Virus genome (UHGV): UHGV-1325350
DNA from: a virus
Length of the DNA stretch: 12,822 nt
Reading direction: 5' to 3' (one strand)
Shown: positions 8,009 to 11,786 of the stretch, in pieces
How the letters are laid out: every line of letters begins with the position of its first letter
Numbering within the stretch: the first letter of the stretch is position 1
Program-made: the position numbers and the translations under genes
The notes under the pieces: generated by a model
The model's input: the letters and a program-made list of their open reading frames with translations, nothing else
Databases searched by the model: none
Told to the model about the DNA's origin: nothing

Positions 8009-8279
8009 TTGCTTTCTCCTGTCGGAACATCACGATCATCAGGTCACCTTTTGTCGCTATCCTGGCTGTTGTGCCAGGCTCAATGCGGCTAAGTTCAAAT
8101 GCGTCATAGAACGCCTCTAACGCTTTCTGGCGTCTCTCCTGTTTGCGGCGCTTTCCCCACTGCATTAGAAAAACAGAGGCCGCCCACTTCCCCGCACTGA
8201 ACATGATGTAAAACCAACCGAGCAGGGCCAAACCTGTGTTGAGGGCCGTATCGAGCGTTATCGTGGTGTCGATATTCAC
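7986..8279 (-). CDS. Small membrane protein (97 aa, GTG start), one or two TM segments followed by a basic cytoplasmic region
   Basis: GTG at 8277-8279 overlaps the TGA of the upstream gene (GTGA) and is preceded by AGGGGG. Hydrophobic stretch TALNTGLALLGWFYIMFSAGKWAASVFLM followed by KRRKQERRQK. Confidence 0.55.
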   Translation of the reverse strand: MNIDTTITLDTALNTGLALLGWFYIMFSAGKWAASVFLMQWGKRRKQERRQKALEAFYDAFELSRIEPGTTARIATKGDLMIVMFRQEKANGSKAND

Positions 8280-8986
8280 TGATTGCCCCCTTCCCTAAGC
8301 TGTTCTGCACAATGCAGCAGCGCACCTGTCGCATCTTTAAGCGTCACTAGCTCGTCATCATCCAGTCCTACTCCCCTCGCGTCCCTGACAAACGCCGCGC
8401 AAAGGTCGTTAAACGCCCCCGCCCGCACTTCAGCCAGGAAAGCGCCAGTAGCAGGGGTGTCAATGCAAACACTGTCACGAAGGATGAAGAACGCATTAAG
8501 CATTCCTCTTTCTGGTACATCGTCCTGGCATTCCTCATATGCAACCAATGCATCCATCATTTTCTGACCGAATTGCTGAGGGTGTGCAGATTTCAGTGCT
8601 ATATTCTCCGCCGCCAGCGTCGCGCGATTGCTCTCCAGTTCTGCAATGCGCTGTTTTGCAGCATCAAGTTCAATCGATAATTTTTCCAACTGCTCTTTAT
8701 GCTTCTTGTATTCCTGATATGCGTGCCAGGACTGACCTTTGCGCACACTATCAGTAATATCAGTAATCTGTTCTGGTGTTAGCGTGGTCAGTGGCTGTGC
8801 TGGGAAAATCAGCACTTTCCCGGAATCCCAATCAAAACCAGCGTGAATTGACTGAACCTCAACTGAGGGTGTTGAACCAATGCTGCCAGGCGAATGAACA
8901 ACGATCGTTACATCCATATCGCGACGATGGCTGTGGTTGTTGGACAAAATACGATTCACCAACTCAGAAAATTTGGAAAATTTCAT
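8276..8986 (-). CDS. Ead/Ea22-like coiled-coil protein, paralog B (236 aa from ATG 8984-8986; ORF track GTG at 9037)
   Basis: The ATG overlaps the TGA of the ClpX-ZBD-like gene (ATGA) and is preceded by AGGGA. Central segment [18 protein letters not shown] shared with paralogs A and C. Confidence 0.6.
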
Positions 8987-9309
8987 GCTGATTCCCTTTG
9001 CTCTTCCTGGATAATGTTGTTGCAATCTTTCACGCACTCGTCGCAGATGAAAACGTTGTCCCCGGCAATTAACTTTTTAACGGTGTGCTGGGATTTGTTG
9101 CAGAAGCTGCAATAAAGCGTTGGACTGGCTGATACGGATGGTGCGCCAGATGTCAGCCGCGCGATGTCGTTCTTGCGACGCAATATCACACGGCTGCACT
9201 CGACCAGCATCTCCGGGGATATCTCCTCCTCCGTAGCGAGCGTCTCTAATCGTTCGAGTATGTGGAAGGCTTTTTCCTGGGTAATTGCAGAATGAGATGT
9301 GGTCATCAT
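8983..9309 (-). CDS. Free-standing ClpX-type C4 zinc-binding domain protein (ClpX N-domain mimic), 108 aa
   Basis: C-terminal [39 protein letters not shown] aligns nearly residue-for-residue with the E. coli ClpX N-terminal zinc-binding domain ([39 protein letters not shown]), including all four Cys. No AAA+ module follows. ATG overlaps the upstream TGA; AGGGG Shine-Dalgarno. Confidence 0.85.
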
Positions 9310-10007
9310 CTTTCCCCTTCAAAGTTCGGGCGCAGGCAGGATTGTCCTTTACGAAGCAGGGCTGCGAACCTGTCGGCCGCATCCGCGCAAGCAGAAGCAA
9401 CGGAATCAAAAAATGGATCATCTCCGGTATCGCGCATCGTCAAAGCGAATGCCTCCAATCCCTTAGCCTGTATTTCTACAAGATAAGCCTCAGATATAGT
9501 GCTTTTCGCTTCACCTAACTCGTTATGAGCTATGTTCGCTACGCATGCGATGTCTATATCTGGATGATTAATTGGGAGATGGCTAAGAATTGCCTCAAGT
9601 GCTGCTTTTTTGTTTTGGCATTCCGCCACCAGCGCCCCGCTATTGCTTTCCAGCTCTGCAATACACTTTTTAGCGGCCTCCAGCTCAACACGCAGCTTCT
9701 CAAGCGTTAGGGCCATCTCCACGTTCTCGTCCAGAAGTTCAATCACATCAGGATCGCTACCATCAACTACTGATATGCGCGAATTTTTGTAATGCTCGTC
9801 AGCATAAGTTCGTCCAGTTTTGAAGCATCCGTCATCCTCCATGCCGGAACAGGCATAAACAACATGTGATCCAGATATGCGCTGCATTGACATTTCCTCG
9901 CCACAAACAGGGCATTTAGGCGCTGGTTTCGGTGAATAACGTTCACGTAACGGATAGTAAAGCTCGATCTCCGCCAGTTGCTCTGGCGTTAAACCTTCAG
10001 ACTTCAT
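9306..10007 (-). CDS. Ead/Ea22-like coiled-coil protein, paralog C, with N-terminal Cys-rich zinc-ribbon-like segment (233 aa)
   Basis: ATG at 10005-10007 with AAGGAG at 5 nt. CPVCGEE...CSGMEDDGC near the N-terminus. Central [18 protein letters not shown] shared with paralogs A and B. Confidence 0.65.
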
Positions 10008-10314
10008 GTACTCTCCTTTCGAAATAAACGTACTGATTAATCATGCCCAGGGGCATTTCGAGTTTTTCCGCGATCTCACGGCGGGGAACACCACACTGAT
10101 GAAGCTGCCGTGCCAGTTCTATATCGCTCTGCCGGTATTTGGCTGACGGATGAAAGTCTCCTTTCAGAATCATGCTGATCCCCAGCTCCCGCGCTTTAGT
10201 CCTGACGGCATCACCGGTACGACCGATCAGCTTCCCAATACTCTCTACCGTCATAGTTCCGGCGCACTGGCGGAGTATCATGATTTCTGCCCTTCCCCAT
10301 CCCCGCCAGCTCAC
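9997..10314 (-). CDS. Small DNA-binding protein with two helix-turn-helix-like segments (105 aa with GTG start; 94 aa if internal ATG)
   Basis: Segments MTVESIGKLIGRTGDAVRTKARELGIS and SDIELARQLHQCGVPRREIAEKLEMP each look like an HTH (resolvase/sigma region 4 style). GTG at 10312-10314 overlaps the TGA of the DUF4406 gene (GTGA). Confidence 0.55.
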   Translation of the reverse strand: MSWRGWGRAEIMILRQCAGTMTVESIGKLIGRTGDAVRTKARELGISMILKGDFHPSAKYRQSDIELARQLHQCGVPRREIAEKLEMPLGMINQYVYFERRVHEV

Positions 10315-10934
10315 GCCGACATCCTCCGAGACATAAACTCCACAAAACGAACTGCATCTTCAGAAACAACACCGCATGACTTCAGATAATTCATTGCGTC
10401 ATTAGGTAGCGGATTAGTTGGTTCGGCATTTGCCAGGGATTGAGATAAACGCGTGATTAATTTGACCATTCTCCGCTGTCGGAGGTTGTATCCTTCGGCT
10501 AAAGACAGGTAACTGGAAAGGGTATTGCTTAAGCGAGCGCGAAGCTGATCCGTGCCGTGACATTCAATAGCAACATCACGCAACGCATCGACCAGTTCGC
10601 GGTAAATATGCGCTGCCATTCTGCAATCTGTGTCAGATGGCGCTTCATAAATTACCGTCAGCTCCAGTTTTTCAGCCAGGGCGTGTTCTGCTCGTGCTCC
10701 TGCGGACGCTTCCCAGCCCTTAAGCAGATAGATAGCATCAGCAGAACGCACCATTGCCAGGCAAATATCCATGTATTCACTCTGACAAAGTCCACCAGGT
10801 AACACCGCTGGATTCAGAACGATATGCCCTTCAGCCGTCAGCTCACTCGCCTTCGCATTAAACGCCGCGCGGTTGTAATCTGGATAACCAGTCATCGGAC
10901 CCGCGATGTAAATTTTCAAAACACGTTTCACCAT
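10311..10934 (-). CDS. DUF4406 (nucleoside 2-deoxyribosyltransferase-like fold) protein with about 110-aa C-terminal extension (207 aa from ATG 10932-10934; ORF track TTG at 10961)
   Basis: N-terminal KIYIAGPMTGYPDYNRAAFNAKASELTAEGHIVLNP matches the YI(A/S)GPMTG...N...AF signature remembered for DUF4406/NDT-like proteins. The ATG overlaps the stop of the upstream 51-aa ORF (TGATG); GGGGAA Shine-Dalgarno. Confidence 0.6.
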   Translation of the reverse strand: MVKRVLKIYIAGPMTGYPDYNRAAFNAKASELTAEGHIVLNPAVLPGGLCQSEYMDICLAMVRSADAIYLLKGWEASAGARAEHALAEKLELTVIYEAPSDTDCRMAAHIYRELVDALRDVAIECHGTDQLRARLSNTLSSYLSLAEGYNLRQRRMVKLITRLSQSLANAEPTNPLPNDAMNYLKSCGVVSEDAVRFVEFMSRRMSA

Positions 10935-11089
10935 CAAAATTTCCCCAGCATCGTGACGCAAAACATAAGCACTGCAAAAAGCTCAATACCAAGCTCAAGT
11001 AGCGCCAACGCGCCGAAAAACAGCACATAAAACAGGCCGATCTCATTCACAGGTGGCTGGTGGATCGCACTTAAGGCTATAAGCATCAT
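10934..11089 (-). CDS. Small hydrophobic membrane protein, 51 aa; first gene of the leftward operon (not in ORF track)
   Basis: My translation: MMLIALSAIHQPPVNEIGLFYVLFFGALALLELGIELFAVLMFCVTMLGKF. GGAGGA Shine-Dalgarno just upstream of tandem ATG (11084-11089). TGA overlaps the ATG of the DUF4406 gene. Confidence 0.4.
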   Translation of the reverse strand: MMLIALSAIHQPPVNEIGLFYVLFFGALALLELGIELFAVLMFCVTMLGKF

Positions 11090-11115
11090 GTCCTCCAAAC
11101 AGTAAACAGCGACTG

Positions 11116-11143
11116 ATATTAATGTTTTATGTTAGAAAATCAA
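11116..11143 (-). promoter_or_regulatory. Predicted sigma70 promoter of the leftward operon (-35 TTGATT, 16-bp spacer, -10 TAATAT on minus strand)
   Basis: Minus-strand sequence TTGATT-TTCTAACATAAAACAT-TAATAT. The operator half-site TTCTAACAT lies in the spacer. About 25 nt upstream of the GGAGGA Shine-Dalgarno of the first ORF. Confidence 0.55.
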
Positions 11144-11159
11144 TTTTGAATATCTAACA
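11130..11159. promoter_or_regulatory. Operator-like palindrome TGTTAGA-N16-TCTAACA in the divergent control region
   Basis: Inverted 7-bp arms at 11130-11136 and 11153-11159. Contains the 11-mer ATGTTAGAAAA (11129-11139) also found at 7039-7049 and, in opposite orientation, at 11787-11797. Lies between the leftward operon and the rightward Ref-like gene. Confidence 0.55.
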
Positions 11160-11207
11160 AATATGATCAATCATAAAAAAATCGCTGATAAGTAAGAGGC
11201 AGCCAAC

Positions 11208-11786
11208 ATGCAGAGACAGAGTTATTGGGAGAAACAGAGACAAAAAGCCATGCAAAAACTGGCTGATCCGGAATGGCGGGAAGAGCAAAGGGCAAAACGT
11301 CTTCAGCAGGCTCAACGCCAGCAGCAACGCGCAAGGGAAAAAGCCGCATCGCCTGAATATCGTCAAAAGAAACTTGAAAAAGTGAGGCAAAATGAACAGC
11401 GCAGAAGAGAGAGGGCGGCGTCAGCCCTCCCCAAAAAAACGCGCCCGTCACGCGGATTAAAAGGGAGATCACTCACAGCAGAAGAGCGCCGGATACAGGA
11501 CGCTATAGGCAAACTCCCCTGTATTGCCTGCCATCTTCACGGGAAGCATAGCCCTGTCGTATCTCTCCACCACATATTTGGCAGAACGGCTAAAGATGCC
11601 CATAAATACGTTCTCCCTTTGTGTAAATGGCACCACCAGCACGCAGCGCCAGCAGAGATCCGCGAACAATATCCCTGGTTGGTTCCTGTTCATGCTGATG
11701 GAAAAATAGGCGGGAAAGCAGATTTTATACGGCACAATGCCGAAGAGATGACGCTCTATCAGACGGTGCAAGAAATGGTGAATTAA
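11208..11786 (+). CDS. ref: Ref-like recombination enhancement function protein: HNH-type nuclease with basic low-complexity N-terminal half (phage P1 Ref-like), 192 aa
   Basis: N-terminal about 95 residues are K/R/Q/E-rich and look disordered. C-terminal half carries a His-Me finger/HNH-like motif (CIACHLHGKH...SLHHIFGR...LPLCKWHHQH). AAGAGG Shine-Dalgarno 8 nt upstream of the ATG. Architecture matches what is known for P1 Ref. Confidence 0.6.
   Translation: MQRQSYWEKQRQKAMQKLADPEWREEQRAKRLQQAQRQQQRAREKAASPEYRQKKLEKVRQNEQRRRERAASALPKKTRPSRGLKGRSLTAEERRIQDAIGKLPCIACHLHGKHSPVVSLHHIFGRTAKDAHKYVLPLCKWHHQHAAPAEIREQYPWLVPVHADGKIGGKADFIRHNAEEMTLYQTVQEMVN

What the first reader, a model, noticed from the sequence alone, without database searches (positions are those of the whole stretch)
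10311..10934. DUF4406 (NDT-like fold) protein with long C-terminal extension, coupled to a double-HTH protein
The N-terminal 95 residues carry the YIAGPMTG signature of the nucleoside 2-deoxyribosyltransferase-like fold, which is related to LOG/SLOG nucleotide-binding domains. An extra roughly 110-residue C-terminal region of unknown type is fused to it, and the gene is translationally coupled to a small protein with two HTH-like segments. A nucleotide- or nucleoside-acting enzyme paired with a DNA-binding partner at the head of the early operon is a plausible anti-defence or nucleotide-pool-modifying module, but this is not established.
Basis: partly seen in the sequence, partly recalled or inferred. 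Interest (0 to 1): 0.5.

Follow-up and report, generated by a model that had tools for sequence, protein, structure and literature searches.

The report
Phage DUF4406 nucleotide-enzyme domain with shuffled tail
This gene, from a D6-like phage-plasmid of E. coli, encodes a small and probably nucleotide-cleaving enzyme domain common in phages, fused to a poorly conserved helical tail; its link to the neighbouring DNA-binding gene looks like ordinary phage gene packing, so the finding is real but fairly ordinary.

Summary

The nucleophile Glu83, Tyr9 and the Ser77-x-Gly79 loop are invariant. The third triad position (Asp/Asn in known enzymes) is Cys58, conserved in 95% of close relatives; actinophage DUF4406 proteins have Asp there.

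The 110-aa C-terminal part consists of two helical modules. They recur in DUF551-type and other mosaic accessory proteins, have no known fold, and are under relaxed selection (dN/dS 0.3-0.5, against 0.07 for the enzyme domain).

The downstream 105-aa protein is predicted to have two helix-turn-helix units and overlaps by GTGA. Such overlaps are the rule in this operon, and each gene commonly occurs without the other.

In other phages DUF4406 lies in replication and nucleotide-metabolism modules. It sits next to dATP/dGTP diphosphohydrolase or dUTPase genes, and once is fused to a MazG-like domain.

Best reading: a nucleotide N-glycosidase or base-exchange enzyme used during phage replication, not a two-gene anti-defence module. 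The window comes from a D6-like P1-type phage-plasmid, where the gene is already annotated as DUF4406.

The parts
10311..10934 (-). Gene for the 207-aa DUF4406 protein with C-terminal extension (equivalent to phage D6 orf89)
   Evidence: ORF. Matches phrog_5781 over its full length, E=2.6e-94. 99% identical cluster P0001. D6 and RefSeq annotate it as a DUF4406 domain-containing protein.
10644..10916 (-). DUF4406 catalytic-type domain (residues 7-97): four strands and three helices, a minimal NDT-like fold
10686..10688 (-). Codon of Glu83, the predicted nucleophile, in the motif S77-A-G79-A-R-A-E83
   Evidence: Aligns with Glu82 of T. brucei NDT in DCGTAFE. Glu in 194 of 194 distinct relatives; Ser77 also 194 of 194.
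10761..10763 (-). Codon of Cys58, at the position of the general-acid Asp/Asn of NDT-family enzymes
   Evidence: Aligns with Asn53 of T. brucei NDT in two independent alignments. Cys in 185 of 195 close relatives. Asp in six actinophage DUF4406 proteins.
10908..10910 (-). Codon of Tyr9, the first triad residue, in KIYIAGPMTG
   Evidence: Aligns with Tyr5 of T. brucei NDT. Tyr in 187 and Phe in 6 of 193 relatives.
10497..10622 (-). C-terminal module A (residues about 105-146, HIYRELVDALRDVAIECHGTDQLRARLS...), a shuffled helical module
   Evidence: A search of 1.84 billion representatives found only 25 hits. Most cover just this stretch and lie at varied positions in DUF551 and other mosaic proteins. 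pLDDT 53-63. dN/dS 0.51.
10338..10487 (-). C-terminal module B (residues about 150-199, LRQRRMVKLITRLSQSLANAEP...AMNYLKS), a second helical module
   Evidence: Found together with module A behind other N-terminal heads in P0230 and P0232, and at another position in P0236. phrog_660 partial match. pLDDT 39-58. dN/dS 0.29.
9997..10314 (-). Downstream 105-aa DNA-binding protein with two HTH units; its GTG start overlaps the upstream stop (GTGA)
10934..11089 (-). 51-aa hydrophobic ORF, the first gene of the leftward operon; its stop overlaps the DUF4406 ATG (TGATG)
   Evidence: phrog_8890, E=2.8e-34. GGAGGA precedes its ATG. Present in 12 of 80 DUF4406 viral loci, 10 at 94-98% identity and two at 62-70%.
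11118..11171 (.). Imperfect 26-nt inverted repeat in the divergent intergenic region between this operon and ref; a candidate operator
   Evidence: Almost invariant in phage D6 and an E. coli plasmid although the flanking genes are only 87% identical. Function not tested.

Best explanation
The gene encodes a mosaic protein of a D6-like P1-type phage-plasmid.

Enzyme domain. The first ~97 residues are a DUF4406 domain, a stripped-down four-stranded version of the nucleoside 2-deoxyribosyltransferase / DNPH1 / MilB fold. I infer that it cleaves the N-glycosidic bond of a (deoxy)nucleoside 5'-monophosphate-type substrate. Glu83, held by Tyr9, would attack C1' and form a covalent sugar-enzyme intermediate. 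Water would then resolve it (hydrolase), or another base would (transferase; the transferase-type Pro42 is present). Ser77 occupies the position where nucleoside transferases have an Asp, as in the 5'-phosphate-specific hydrolases. The usual general acid is replaced by a subfamily-conserved Cys58, so either the leaving-group chemistry or the substrate differs from the known enzymes. The likely role is management of the nucleotide pool during phage DNA replication.

C-terminal tail. The last 110 residues are two helical modules taken from the pool that lambdoid accessory proteins (DUF551 type) shuffle among themselves. I infer an adaptor or oligomerisation role, not catalysis.

Neighbour. The downstream two-HTH gene is an independent cassette, and its overlap with this gene reflects the packing style of the operon.

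Shown: family membership, fold, residue conservation, mosaic origin of the tail, separability of the two genes. Inferred: substrate class, reaction, biological role.
For: - Active-site motifs: KIYIAGP, the conserved Asp before strand 3, and S/D-x-G-x-x-x-E all align with T. brucei NDT. Glu83 and Ser77 are invariant in 194 of 194 relatives, and Tyr9 is present in 187 of 193.
- Literature: triad roles and the phosphate-pocket rule come from PMC10603095 (DNPH1) and PMC12884076 (phage DmtZ).
- Selection: dN/dS 0.069 on the domain.
- Context in mycobacteriophages: in 244, Murphy and Minerva the DUF4406 gene is immediately followed by a PF18909 dATP/dGTP diphosphohydrolase gene (E 4.5e-38, 1.8e-27, 1.3e-23). 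Minerva gp164 fuses DUF4406 to a PRA-PH/MazG-like domain.
- Context in other phages: in a Vibrio phage the next gene is dUTPase. Other phages carry the gene among helicase, sliding clamp, exonuclease, RusA and dNMP kinase genes. BFVD structural matches include proteins named as containing the dATP/dGTP diphosphohydrolase N-terminal domain.
- Tail: only 25 hits in 1.84 billion representatives, mostly to module A alone inside DUF551-type and other mosaic proteins; low pLDDT; dN/dS 0.29-0.51 at similar dS.
- Separability of the two genes.
Against: - The general-acid Asp/Asn of all characterised family enzymes is absent (Cys58), so the classical mechanism is not fully supported.
- The domain has four strands and lacks the C-terminal elements that complete the active site across the dimer in NDT and DNPH1.
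- No DUF4406 protein has been assayed; the literature searches found nothing functional.
- No nucleotide-metabolism gene lies next to it in this window. The dut gene of a related plasmid is about 12 kb away.
- The neighbour evidence comes from 11 hand-inspected phage loci, not a systematic count.
Confidence: 0.5

Rival explanations
1. One reading: the DUF4406 enzyme and the two-HTH protein form one functional two-gene module, either an enzyme plus a DNA-binding partner or regulator, or an anti-defence pair. Translational coupling would fix their stoichiometry.
For: - GTGA overlap with a strong Shine-Dalgarno sequence inside the upstream gene.
- Among 80 viral loci carrying the HTH gene, 58 have DUF4406 directly adjacent, and in both gene orders: 31 D6-type loci (DUF4406 then HTH) and 27 lambdoid loci (HTH then DUF4406).
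Against: - The 58 loci fall into a few heavily sampled E. coli lineages with near-constant identities.
- 22 of 80 viral HTH loci and 9 of 9 loci from other species have no DUF4406 within 3 kb.
- 61 of the 80 nearest DUF4406 loci lack the HTH gene.
- The DUF4406 family has at least 7548 clusters against 107 for the HTH protein.
- Five of the first seven junctions in this operon are 4-nt overlaps.
- In the lambdoid prophages examined the HTH gene follows DUF1627.
- No PADLOC match.
- One plasmid carries an in-frame deletion that destroys both genes (P0219).
Confidence: 0.12
2. The domain is a glycohydrolase for nucleotides with an activated, positively charged leaving group: NAD+ or NMN, or NAD-derived immune signals such as cyclic ADP-ribose isomers. 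These substrates need only the Glu nucleophile and no general acid, which would make the protein an anti-defence enzyme or a toxin.
For: - The general-acid position is Cys, or Ala/Gly in some relatives.
- An NDT-like retron effector is reported to deplete NAD+ (PMC13276650).
Against: - No context evidence: the neighbours in other phages are dNTP pyrophosphohydrolases and replication genes.
- The S-x-G-x-x-x-E motif and the Tyr are of the NDT type, and NDT-family structures score higher than TIRs.
- Cys58 is 95% conserved, which suggests it has a role rather than the position simply being dispensable.
- No PADLOC match.
Confidence: 0.15
3. The domain no longer catalyses anything and works as a nucleotide-binding (sponge or sensor) module. 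The helical tail would then be the effector or interaction part.
For: The canonical Asp/Asn is missing. The fold is truncated to four strands. The tail modules are shared with many non-enzymatic accessory proteins.
Against: The nucleophile Glu83, Ser77, Gly79 and Tyr9 are invariant across about 195 relatives and in distant actinophage members. Purifying selection is strong (dN/dS 0.07). Most family members have no tail at all.
Confidence: 0.08

Closest known systems
DNPH1 / Rcl (2'-deoxynucleoside 5'-phosphate N-hydrolase) and MilB (CMP / hydroxymethyl-CMP hydrolase)
   Different: About 95 residues instead of about 150, with four strands. No sequence-level PDB hit. The general acid Asp (D80 in human DNPH1) is Cys58. 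Dimer-completed phosphate contacts are not identifiable. No activity data.
Phage DmtZ (NDT-like dAMP hydrolase / deoxyribose-5-phosphate transferase of Z-genome phages, PMC12884076)
   Same: A phage-encoded NDT-superfamily enzyme that works together with a dNTP pyrophosphohydrolase (DutZ or DUF5664). DUF4406 genes of mycobacteriophages sit directly upstream of PF18909 dATP/dGTP diphosphohydrolase genes. Like DmtZ, this protein combines a hydrolase-like phosphate pocket with the transferase-type Pro (P42).
   Different: DmtZ is about 145 aa with five strands and a Tyr/Asn/Glu triad, and it occurs in PurZ0 phages with modified DNA. This element has no PurZ, DpoZ or adjacent pyrophosphohydrolase in the window. 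No sequence relationship to DmtZ was tested.
Nucleoside 2-deoxyribosyltransferases (Lactobacillus NDT/PDT; T. brucei and L. mexicana NDT)
   Different: The Asp in D-x-G-x-x-x-E that NDTs use for the sugar hydroxyl is Ser77. The third triad residue is Cys. The protein is much shorter.
DUF1937 (PDB 1t1j, P. aeruginosa hypothetical protein)
   Different: Also uncharacterised, so it adds no functional information. Sequence similarity is marginal (E=2).
DUF551-type and other mosaic accessory proteins of lambdoid prophages
   Same: They share module A, and some share module B, of the C-terminal extension. They sit in the same kind of accessory operon, and Ead/Ea22-like and DUF551-like genes lie in this window.
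   Different: Those proteins carry the modules with other heads (DUF551, a Cys-rich region). None of the ten scanned has an enzyme domain.

Membership tests
Pfam DUF4406 (PF14359) | Match to the family HMM above the gathering score | tested here: met
   118.2 bits against a cut-off of 22, E=2.2e-34, profile positions 2-91 of 91.
Pfam DUF4406 (PF14359) | Family-invariant residues (G12, P13, N21, F25, P42, Y54, M55, W74, S77, G79, A80, E83) | tested here: met
   All are present in the window protein. Each is found in 191-195 of about 195 distinct relatives.
NDT / DNPH1 superfamily (nucleoside 2-deoxyribosyltransferase-like) | Flavodoxin-like alpha/beta fold superposable on solved members | tested here: met
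NDT / DNPH1 superfamily | Catalytic nucleophile Glu in the (D/S)-x-G-x-x-x-E loop | tested here: met
   Glu83 aligns with Glu82 of T. brucei NDT and is invariant in 194 of 194 relatives.
NDT / DNPH1 superfamily | Tyr after strand 1 that orients the nucleophile | tested here: met
   Tyr9 in KIYIAGP aligns with Tyr5 of T. brucei NDT. Tyr in 187 and Phe in 6 of 193 relatives.
NDT / DNPH1 superfamily | General acid/base Asp (or Asn) in helix 3, eight residues before the conserved xDxxI Asp | tested here: not met
   The position is Cys58 in both the HMMER and MAFFT alignments. Cys in 185 of 195 close relatives. Six actinophage DUF4406 proteins have Asp there.
NDT / DNPH1 superfamily | Five-stranded sheet and an active site completed by the partner subunit of a dimer or hexamer | tested here: inconclusive
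   The model has four strands (7-11, 38-40, 67-70, 93-96) followed by low-confidence helices. Oligomeric state cannot be tested with these tools.
5'-monophosphate-specific hydrolase subgroup (DNPH1, Rcl, MilB, DmtZ) | A small uncharged residue in place of the Asp/Asn that binds the sugar hydroxyl in nucleoside transferases | tested here: met
   Ser77 aligns with the Asp of DCGTAFE in T. brucei NDT and is invariant. The rule is taken from PMC12884076.
5'-monophosphate-specific hydrolase subgroup | Measured N-glycosidase activity on dNMP or NMP | not testable with these tools
Obligate two-gene module (enzyme plus HTH partner, including toxin-antitoxin-like pairs) | The two genes co-occur wherever either is found | tested here: not met
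   The HTH gene is absent from 61 of 80 DUF4406 loci. DUF4406 is absent from 22 of 80 viral and 9 of 9 other-species HTH loci.
Known anti-phage defence systems (PADLOC-DB 2.0) | Match to any defence-protein HMM | tested here: not met
   No match at E up to 1 for the DUF4406 protein, the HTH protein or the small ORF. No anti-defence library was available.
Bipartite tri-helical HTH (GcrA / Myb / Tc3-like), for the neighbouring protein | Two three-helix HTH units joined by a linker | tested here: met

The most novel reading that the evidence does not exclude
The proteobacterial-phage branch of DUF4406 is a new catalytic variant of the NDT fold, with Tyr-Cys-Glu instead of Tyr-Asp/Asn-Glu. Its real substrates would be non-canonical nucleotides: either hydroxymethylated dNMPs of competing phages (MilB and DNPH1 cleave hmCMP and hmdUMP) or NAD-derived immune signals. 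Thousands of temperate phages would then carry a tiny enzyme for inter-phage exclusion or anti-defence. In the D6 lineage the shuffled C-terminal modules would target that enzyme to a partner.
Probability: 0.1. Interest if true: 0.7.

Novelty: new member of a known kind. Interest (0 to 1): 0.3.

Why it matters
DUF4406 is one of the commoner uncharacterised small domains of temperate phages. It forms at least 7548 clusters at 90% identity and is present in 768 of 50,697 phage genome records. This work places it in the NDT/DNPH1 enzyme superfamily, with the nucleophile and the phosphate-type pocket intact. It also shows a subfamily switch at the general-acid position: Cys in enterobacterial and Vibrio phages, Asp in actinophages. 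Finally, it links the domain to dNTP pyrophosphohydrolase neighbours. Together these give a concrete and cheap biochemical hypothesis for a large family. For this particular gene the practical result is negative: the C-terminal tail and the HTH neighbour are products of lambdoid-style module shuffling, not evidence of a dedicated anti-defence module.

Tried and rejected
- A single-sequence search of the PDB found nothing.
- Literature searches for DUF4406 and PF14359 gave only annotation lists or nothing.
- PADLOC and NCBIfam gave nothing useful.
- For the C-terminal extension, the Pfam scan of each aligned sequence and the profile search of PDB sequences gave only chance-level hits, E above 0.01. 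tblastn found no second copy in the window.
- There is no similarity between the extension and the DUF1627 protein that precedes the HTH gene in lambdoid prophages.
- Fusion evidence from annotation names was rejected. Phage genes named 'deoxycytidylate deaminase', 'MazG-like pyrophosphatase' or 'hydrolase' over the DUF4406 match looked like fusions, but three I checked (Amelia gp53, 244 gp113, Murphy gp110) are 110-124 aa proteins with only a DUF4406 domain. Only Minerva gp164 is a true fusion.
- The toxin-antitoxin reading of the pair (two proteins of about 100 aa, coupled, one with an HTH) was rejected because each gene is common without the other.
- The P1 C1 operator consensus has no match within 3 mismatches. 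The simple sigma-70 scan found no promoter in the 11099-11207 intergenic region.
- My first mapping took the 'SAD' Asp (D66) as the catalytic Asp. This was wrong. D66 corresponds to the structural Asp before strand 3, and the catalytic position is eight residues upstream, at Cys58.

Full report
**Where the window comes from.** The region 9900-11200 is 86.6% identical to Escherichia phage D6 (orf88-orf91). It is 92-98% identical to E. coli plasmids of about 90 kb, with 100 of the 115 matching places on plasmids. The annotated neighbourhoods contain P1-type genes such as ref, mat, humD, hot, ppp, pdcB and tail genes. The window is therefore part of a D6-like P1-type phage-plasmid. The target gene is D6 orf89, which RefSeq already annotates as a 'DUF4406 domain-containing protein'. 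A 99% identical cluster with 667 member sequences exists (P0001).

**Observation.** The minus-strand ORF runs from ATG 10934 to TGA 10311-10313 and encodes 207 aa. Pfam DUF4406 matches residues 7-96 at E=2.2e-34. PHROG 5781 matches the full length, and PHROG 355 ('nucleoside 2-deoxyribosyltransferase') matches the domain. YIAGPMTG is residues 9-16. Residues 98-207 match nothing in Pfam, NCBIfam or the PDB.

The next gene (9997-10314) starts at a GTG inside GTGA, with GGAGGA 8 nt upstream. Homologues conserve W6, A9 and E10, which lie upstream of the internal ATG that RefSeq uses. The overlapping long form is therefore the real one.

The gene is not first in its operon. A 51-aa hydrophobic ORF (10934-11089, phrog_8890) precedes it with a TGATG overlap.

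**Fold and active site.** An AlphaFold model built on 71 sequences gives pLDDT 81-97 for residues 1-100. It shows four strands and three helices. Residues 101-207 are helical with pLDDT 39-63.

A family profile hits the T. brucei NDT sequence at E=0.007, with co-linear motifs. In the NDT superfamily the catalytic triad is Tyr, Asp (or Asn) and Glu. Examples are Y24/D80/E104 in human DNPH1 (PMC10603095) and Tyr6/Asn77/Glu103 in phage DmtZ (PMC12884076).

Two independent alignments (HMMER, MAFFT) map the T. brucei residues Tyr5, Asn53 and Glu82 onto Tyr9, Cys58 and Glu83 of this protein. The T. brucei numbering is my own assignment: I subtracted 8 from the chain positions printed and matched the single Asn of that helix to the paper's remark that this enzyme carries Asn at the triad position.

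Among about 195 distinct close relatives:
- Glu83 and Ser77 are invariant.
- Tyr9 is Tyr in 187 and Phe in 6.
- Position 58 is Cys in 185; the rest are Ala 5, Gly 2, Asp 1, Asn 1, Phe 1.

Six actinophage DUF4406 proteins have Asp at that column. Ser77 sits where nucleoside transferases have an Asp. PMC12884076 describes uncharged residues there as the mark of 5'-phosphate-specific hydrolases. Pro42 aligns with the Pro that the same paper calls typical of transferases.

In short, the fold and two of the three triad residues are present. The third is a subfamily-specific Cys.

**What the family does elsewhere.** The family is large. A profile search returned 7548 clusters before hitting its cap, and most of the best ones are stand-alone enterobacterial prophage proteins of 95-101 aa. 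tblastn finds the domain in 768 phage genome records, mainly phages of Mycobacterium, Arthrobacter, Vibrio and Gordonia.

Annotation names over these matches are unreliable. Three genes called 'deoxycytidylate deaminase', 'MazG-like pyrophosphatase' and 'hydrolase' are 110-124 aa DUF4406-only proteins.

Real context evidence does exist:
- In mycobacteriophages 244, Murphy and Minerva the DUF4406 gene is immediately followed by a PF18909 dATP/dGTP diphosphohydrolase gene (E 4.5e-38, 1.8e-27, 1.3e-23).
- Minerva gp164 is a true fusion of DUF4406 with a PRA-PH/MazG-like domain.
- In Vibrio phage 1.017.O the next gene is dUTPase.
- Other phages place the gene among helicase, sliding clamp, DnaQ-like exonuclease, RusA, methyltransferase and dNMP kinase genes.
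- BFVD structural matches include proteins named as containing the dATP/dGTP diphosphohydrolase N-terminal domain.

This mirrors the published DutZ or DUF5664 plus DmtZ pathway, in which a dNTP is first cut to a dNMP and the NDT-like enzyme then removes or exchanges the base (PMC12884076). I therefore favour a nucleotide N-glycosidase or base-exchange function in replication-linked nucleotide metabolism.

**The C-terminal extension.** A search of 1.84 billion representative proteins with residues 98-207 found only 25 hits. Apart from D6-type alleles, most hits cover only residues about 105-146 (module A, consensus PHVYRELVNSLRDTAVKYQGTQQLRE). They lie at varied positions in mosaic proteins, several of which carry DUF551. 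Residues about 150-199 (module B) occur together with module A behind other N-terminal heads in P0230 and P0232, and at another position in P0236.

Comparing the window allele with the D6 allele:

| Segment | dS | dN/dS |
|---|---|---|
| Enzyme domain | 0.47 | 0.07 |
| Module A | 0.57 | 0.51 |
| Module B | 0.71 | 0.29 |

The tail is therefore translated and constrained, but much more weakly than the enzyme domain. I read it as a shuffled helical adaptor or oligomerisation element. Its function is unknown.

Is it a partner of the enzyme? The co-occurrence counts are:
- Of 80 viral loci with the nearest DUF4406 relatives, 11 are D6-type (DUF4406 with tail, then HTH), 8 are lambdoid (HTH, then stand-alone DUF4406) and 61 have no HTH gene.
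- Of 80 viral loci with the HTH gene, 31 are D6-type, 27 are lambdoid with adjacent DUF4406, and 22 lack DUF4406.
- Of 10 loci from species-representative genomes, one is a D6-like contaminant contig. The other nine (Erwinia, Citrobacter, Pantoea, Pluralibacter, Franconibacter, Superficieibacter, Kluyvera and an unnamed Enterobacteriaceae bacterium) all lack DUF4406 within 3 kb.

Adjacency in two gene orders is a weak hint of linkage. However, the counts are dominated by a few heavily sampled E. coli lineages. The HTH gene follows DUF1627 in the lambdoid loci examined. Five of the first seven gene junctions in this operon are 4-nt overlaps. One plasmid carries an in-frame deletion that joins DUF4406 residue 52 to HTH residue 52 (P0219). 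There is no PADLOC match. I conclude that the coupling is generic packing, not evidence of a dedicated module.

**Verdict.** The gene is a catalogued member of an uncharacterised but recognisable branch of the NDT/DNPH1 superfamily, carrying a lineage-specific shuffled tail. The most useful new points are three:
- The general-acid position is Cys in this branch and Asp in actinophage members.
- The pocket is of the phosphate type.
- dNTP pyrophosphohydrolases recur as neighbours.

Interest is modest.

Noticed in passing
window 11118-11171: An imperfect 26-nt inverted repeat (core TGTTAGA...TCTAACA) lies in the divergent intergenic region between ref and the leftward operon. It is nearly invariant in phage D6 and an E. 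coli plasmid although the flanking genes are only about 87% identical. It may be an operator. It does not match the P1 C1 operator consensus.
   Followed up: partly
window 9997-10314 (compare L001 12568-12852): RefSeq annotates the HTH gene from an internal ATG (94 aa). This cuts off W6, A9 and E10, which are conserved in 34 homologues. The GTG start overlapping the upstream stop is more likely correct.
   Followed up: yes
window 10761-10763 (Cys58); L183, L184, L185, L190, L191, L192: The triad position that is Asp/Asn in NDT-family enzymes is Cys in 95% of the close relatives examined, as well as in a Vibrio and a Shewanella phage protein, but Asp in six actinophage DUF4406 proteins. This is a clean subfamily split that may reflect different substrates.
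   Followed up: partly
L183 2492-3414; L185 1135-1991; L184 1180-2408: In three mycobacteriophages the DUF4406 gene is directly followed by a PF18909 dATP/dGTP diphosphohydrolase gene. Minerva gp164 fuses DUF4406 to a PRA-PH/MazG-like domain.
   Followed up: partly
L182 2477-2845; L183 2492-2824; L185 1135-1509: Deposited product names for DUF4406-only proteins of 110-124 aa are inconsistent ('deoxycytidylate deaminase', 'MazG-like pyrophosphatase', 'hydrolase'). They could mislead anyone inferring function from annotation.
   Followed up: yes
L172 (JAFAFN010000164.1, 3228 bases): A 3.2-kb contig filed under an 'Actinomycetes bacterium' MAG carries the small ORF, the DUF4406 gene and the HTH gene at 91-97% protein identity to this E. 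coli phage-plasmid. It is almost certainly contamination or mis-binning.
   Followed up: partly
P0219 (one E. coli contig of 23 kb): A natural in-frame deletion joins DUF4406 residue 52 to HTH residue 52, giving a 106-aa chimera. It removes Glu83 and the first HTH unit, so both genes are dispensable for carriage of that element.
   Followed up: no
window 8983-9309 (minus strand): A 108-aa protein has a stand-alone ClpX C4-type zinc-finger domain at its C-terminus (Pfam E=6e-18) and no ATPase domain. It could mimic or compete with the ClpX N-domain.
   Followed up: no
window 9306-10007 and 8276-9037 (minus strand): Two neighbouring Ead/Ea22-like coiled-coil proteins match the same PHROGs (368 and 492). 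This is further evidence that the operon is built from shuffled lambdoid modules inside a P1-type backbone.
   Followed up: no
window 11208-11786 (plus strand): A Ref-like RecA-dependent nuclease gene (Pfam RecA_dep_nuc, E=2.7e-36) is transcribed divergently from the operon. Its N-terminal 90 residues are a highly charged, Arg/Gln/Glu-rich low-complexity region.
   Followed up: no
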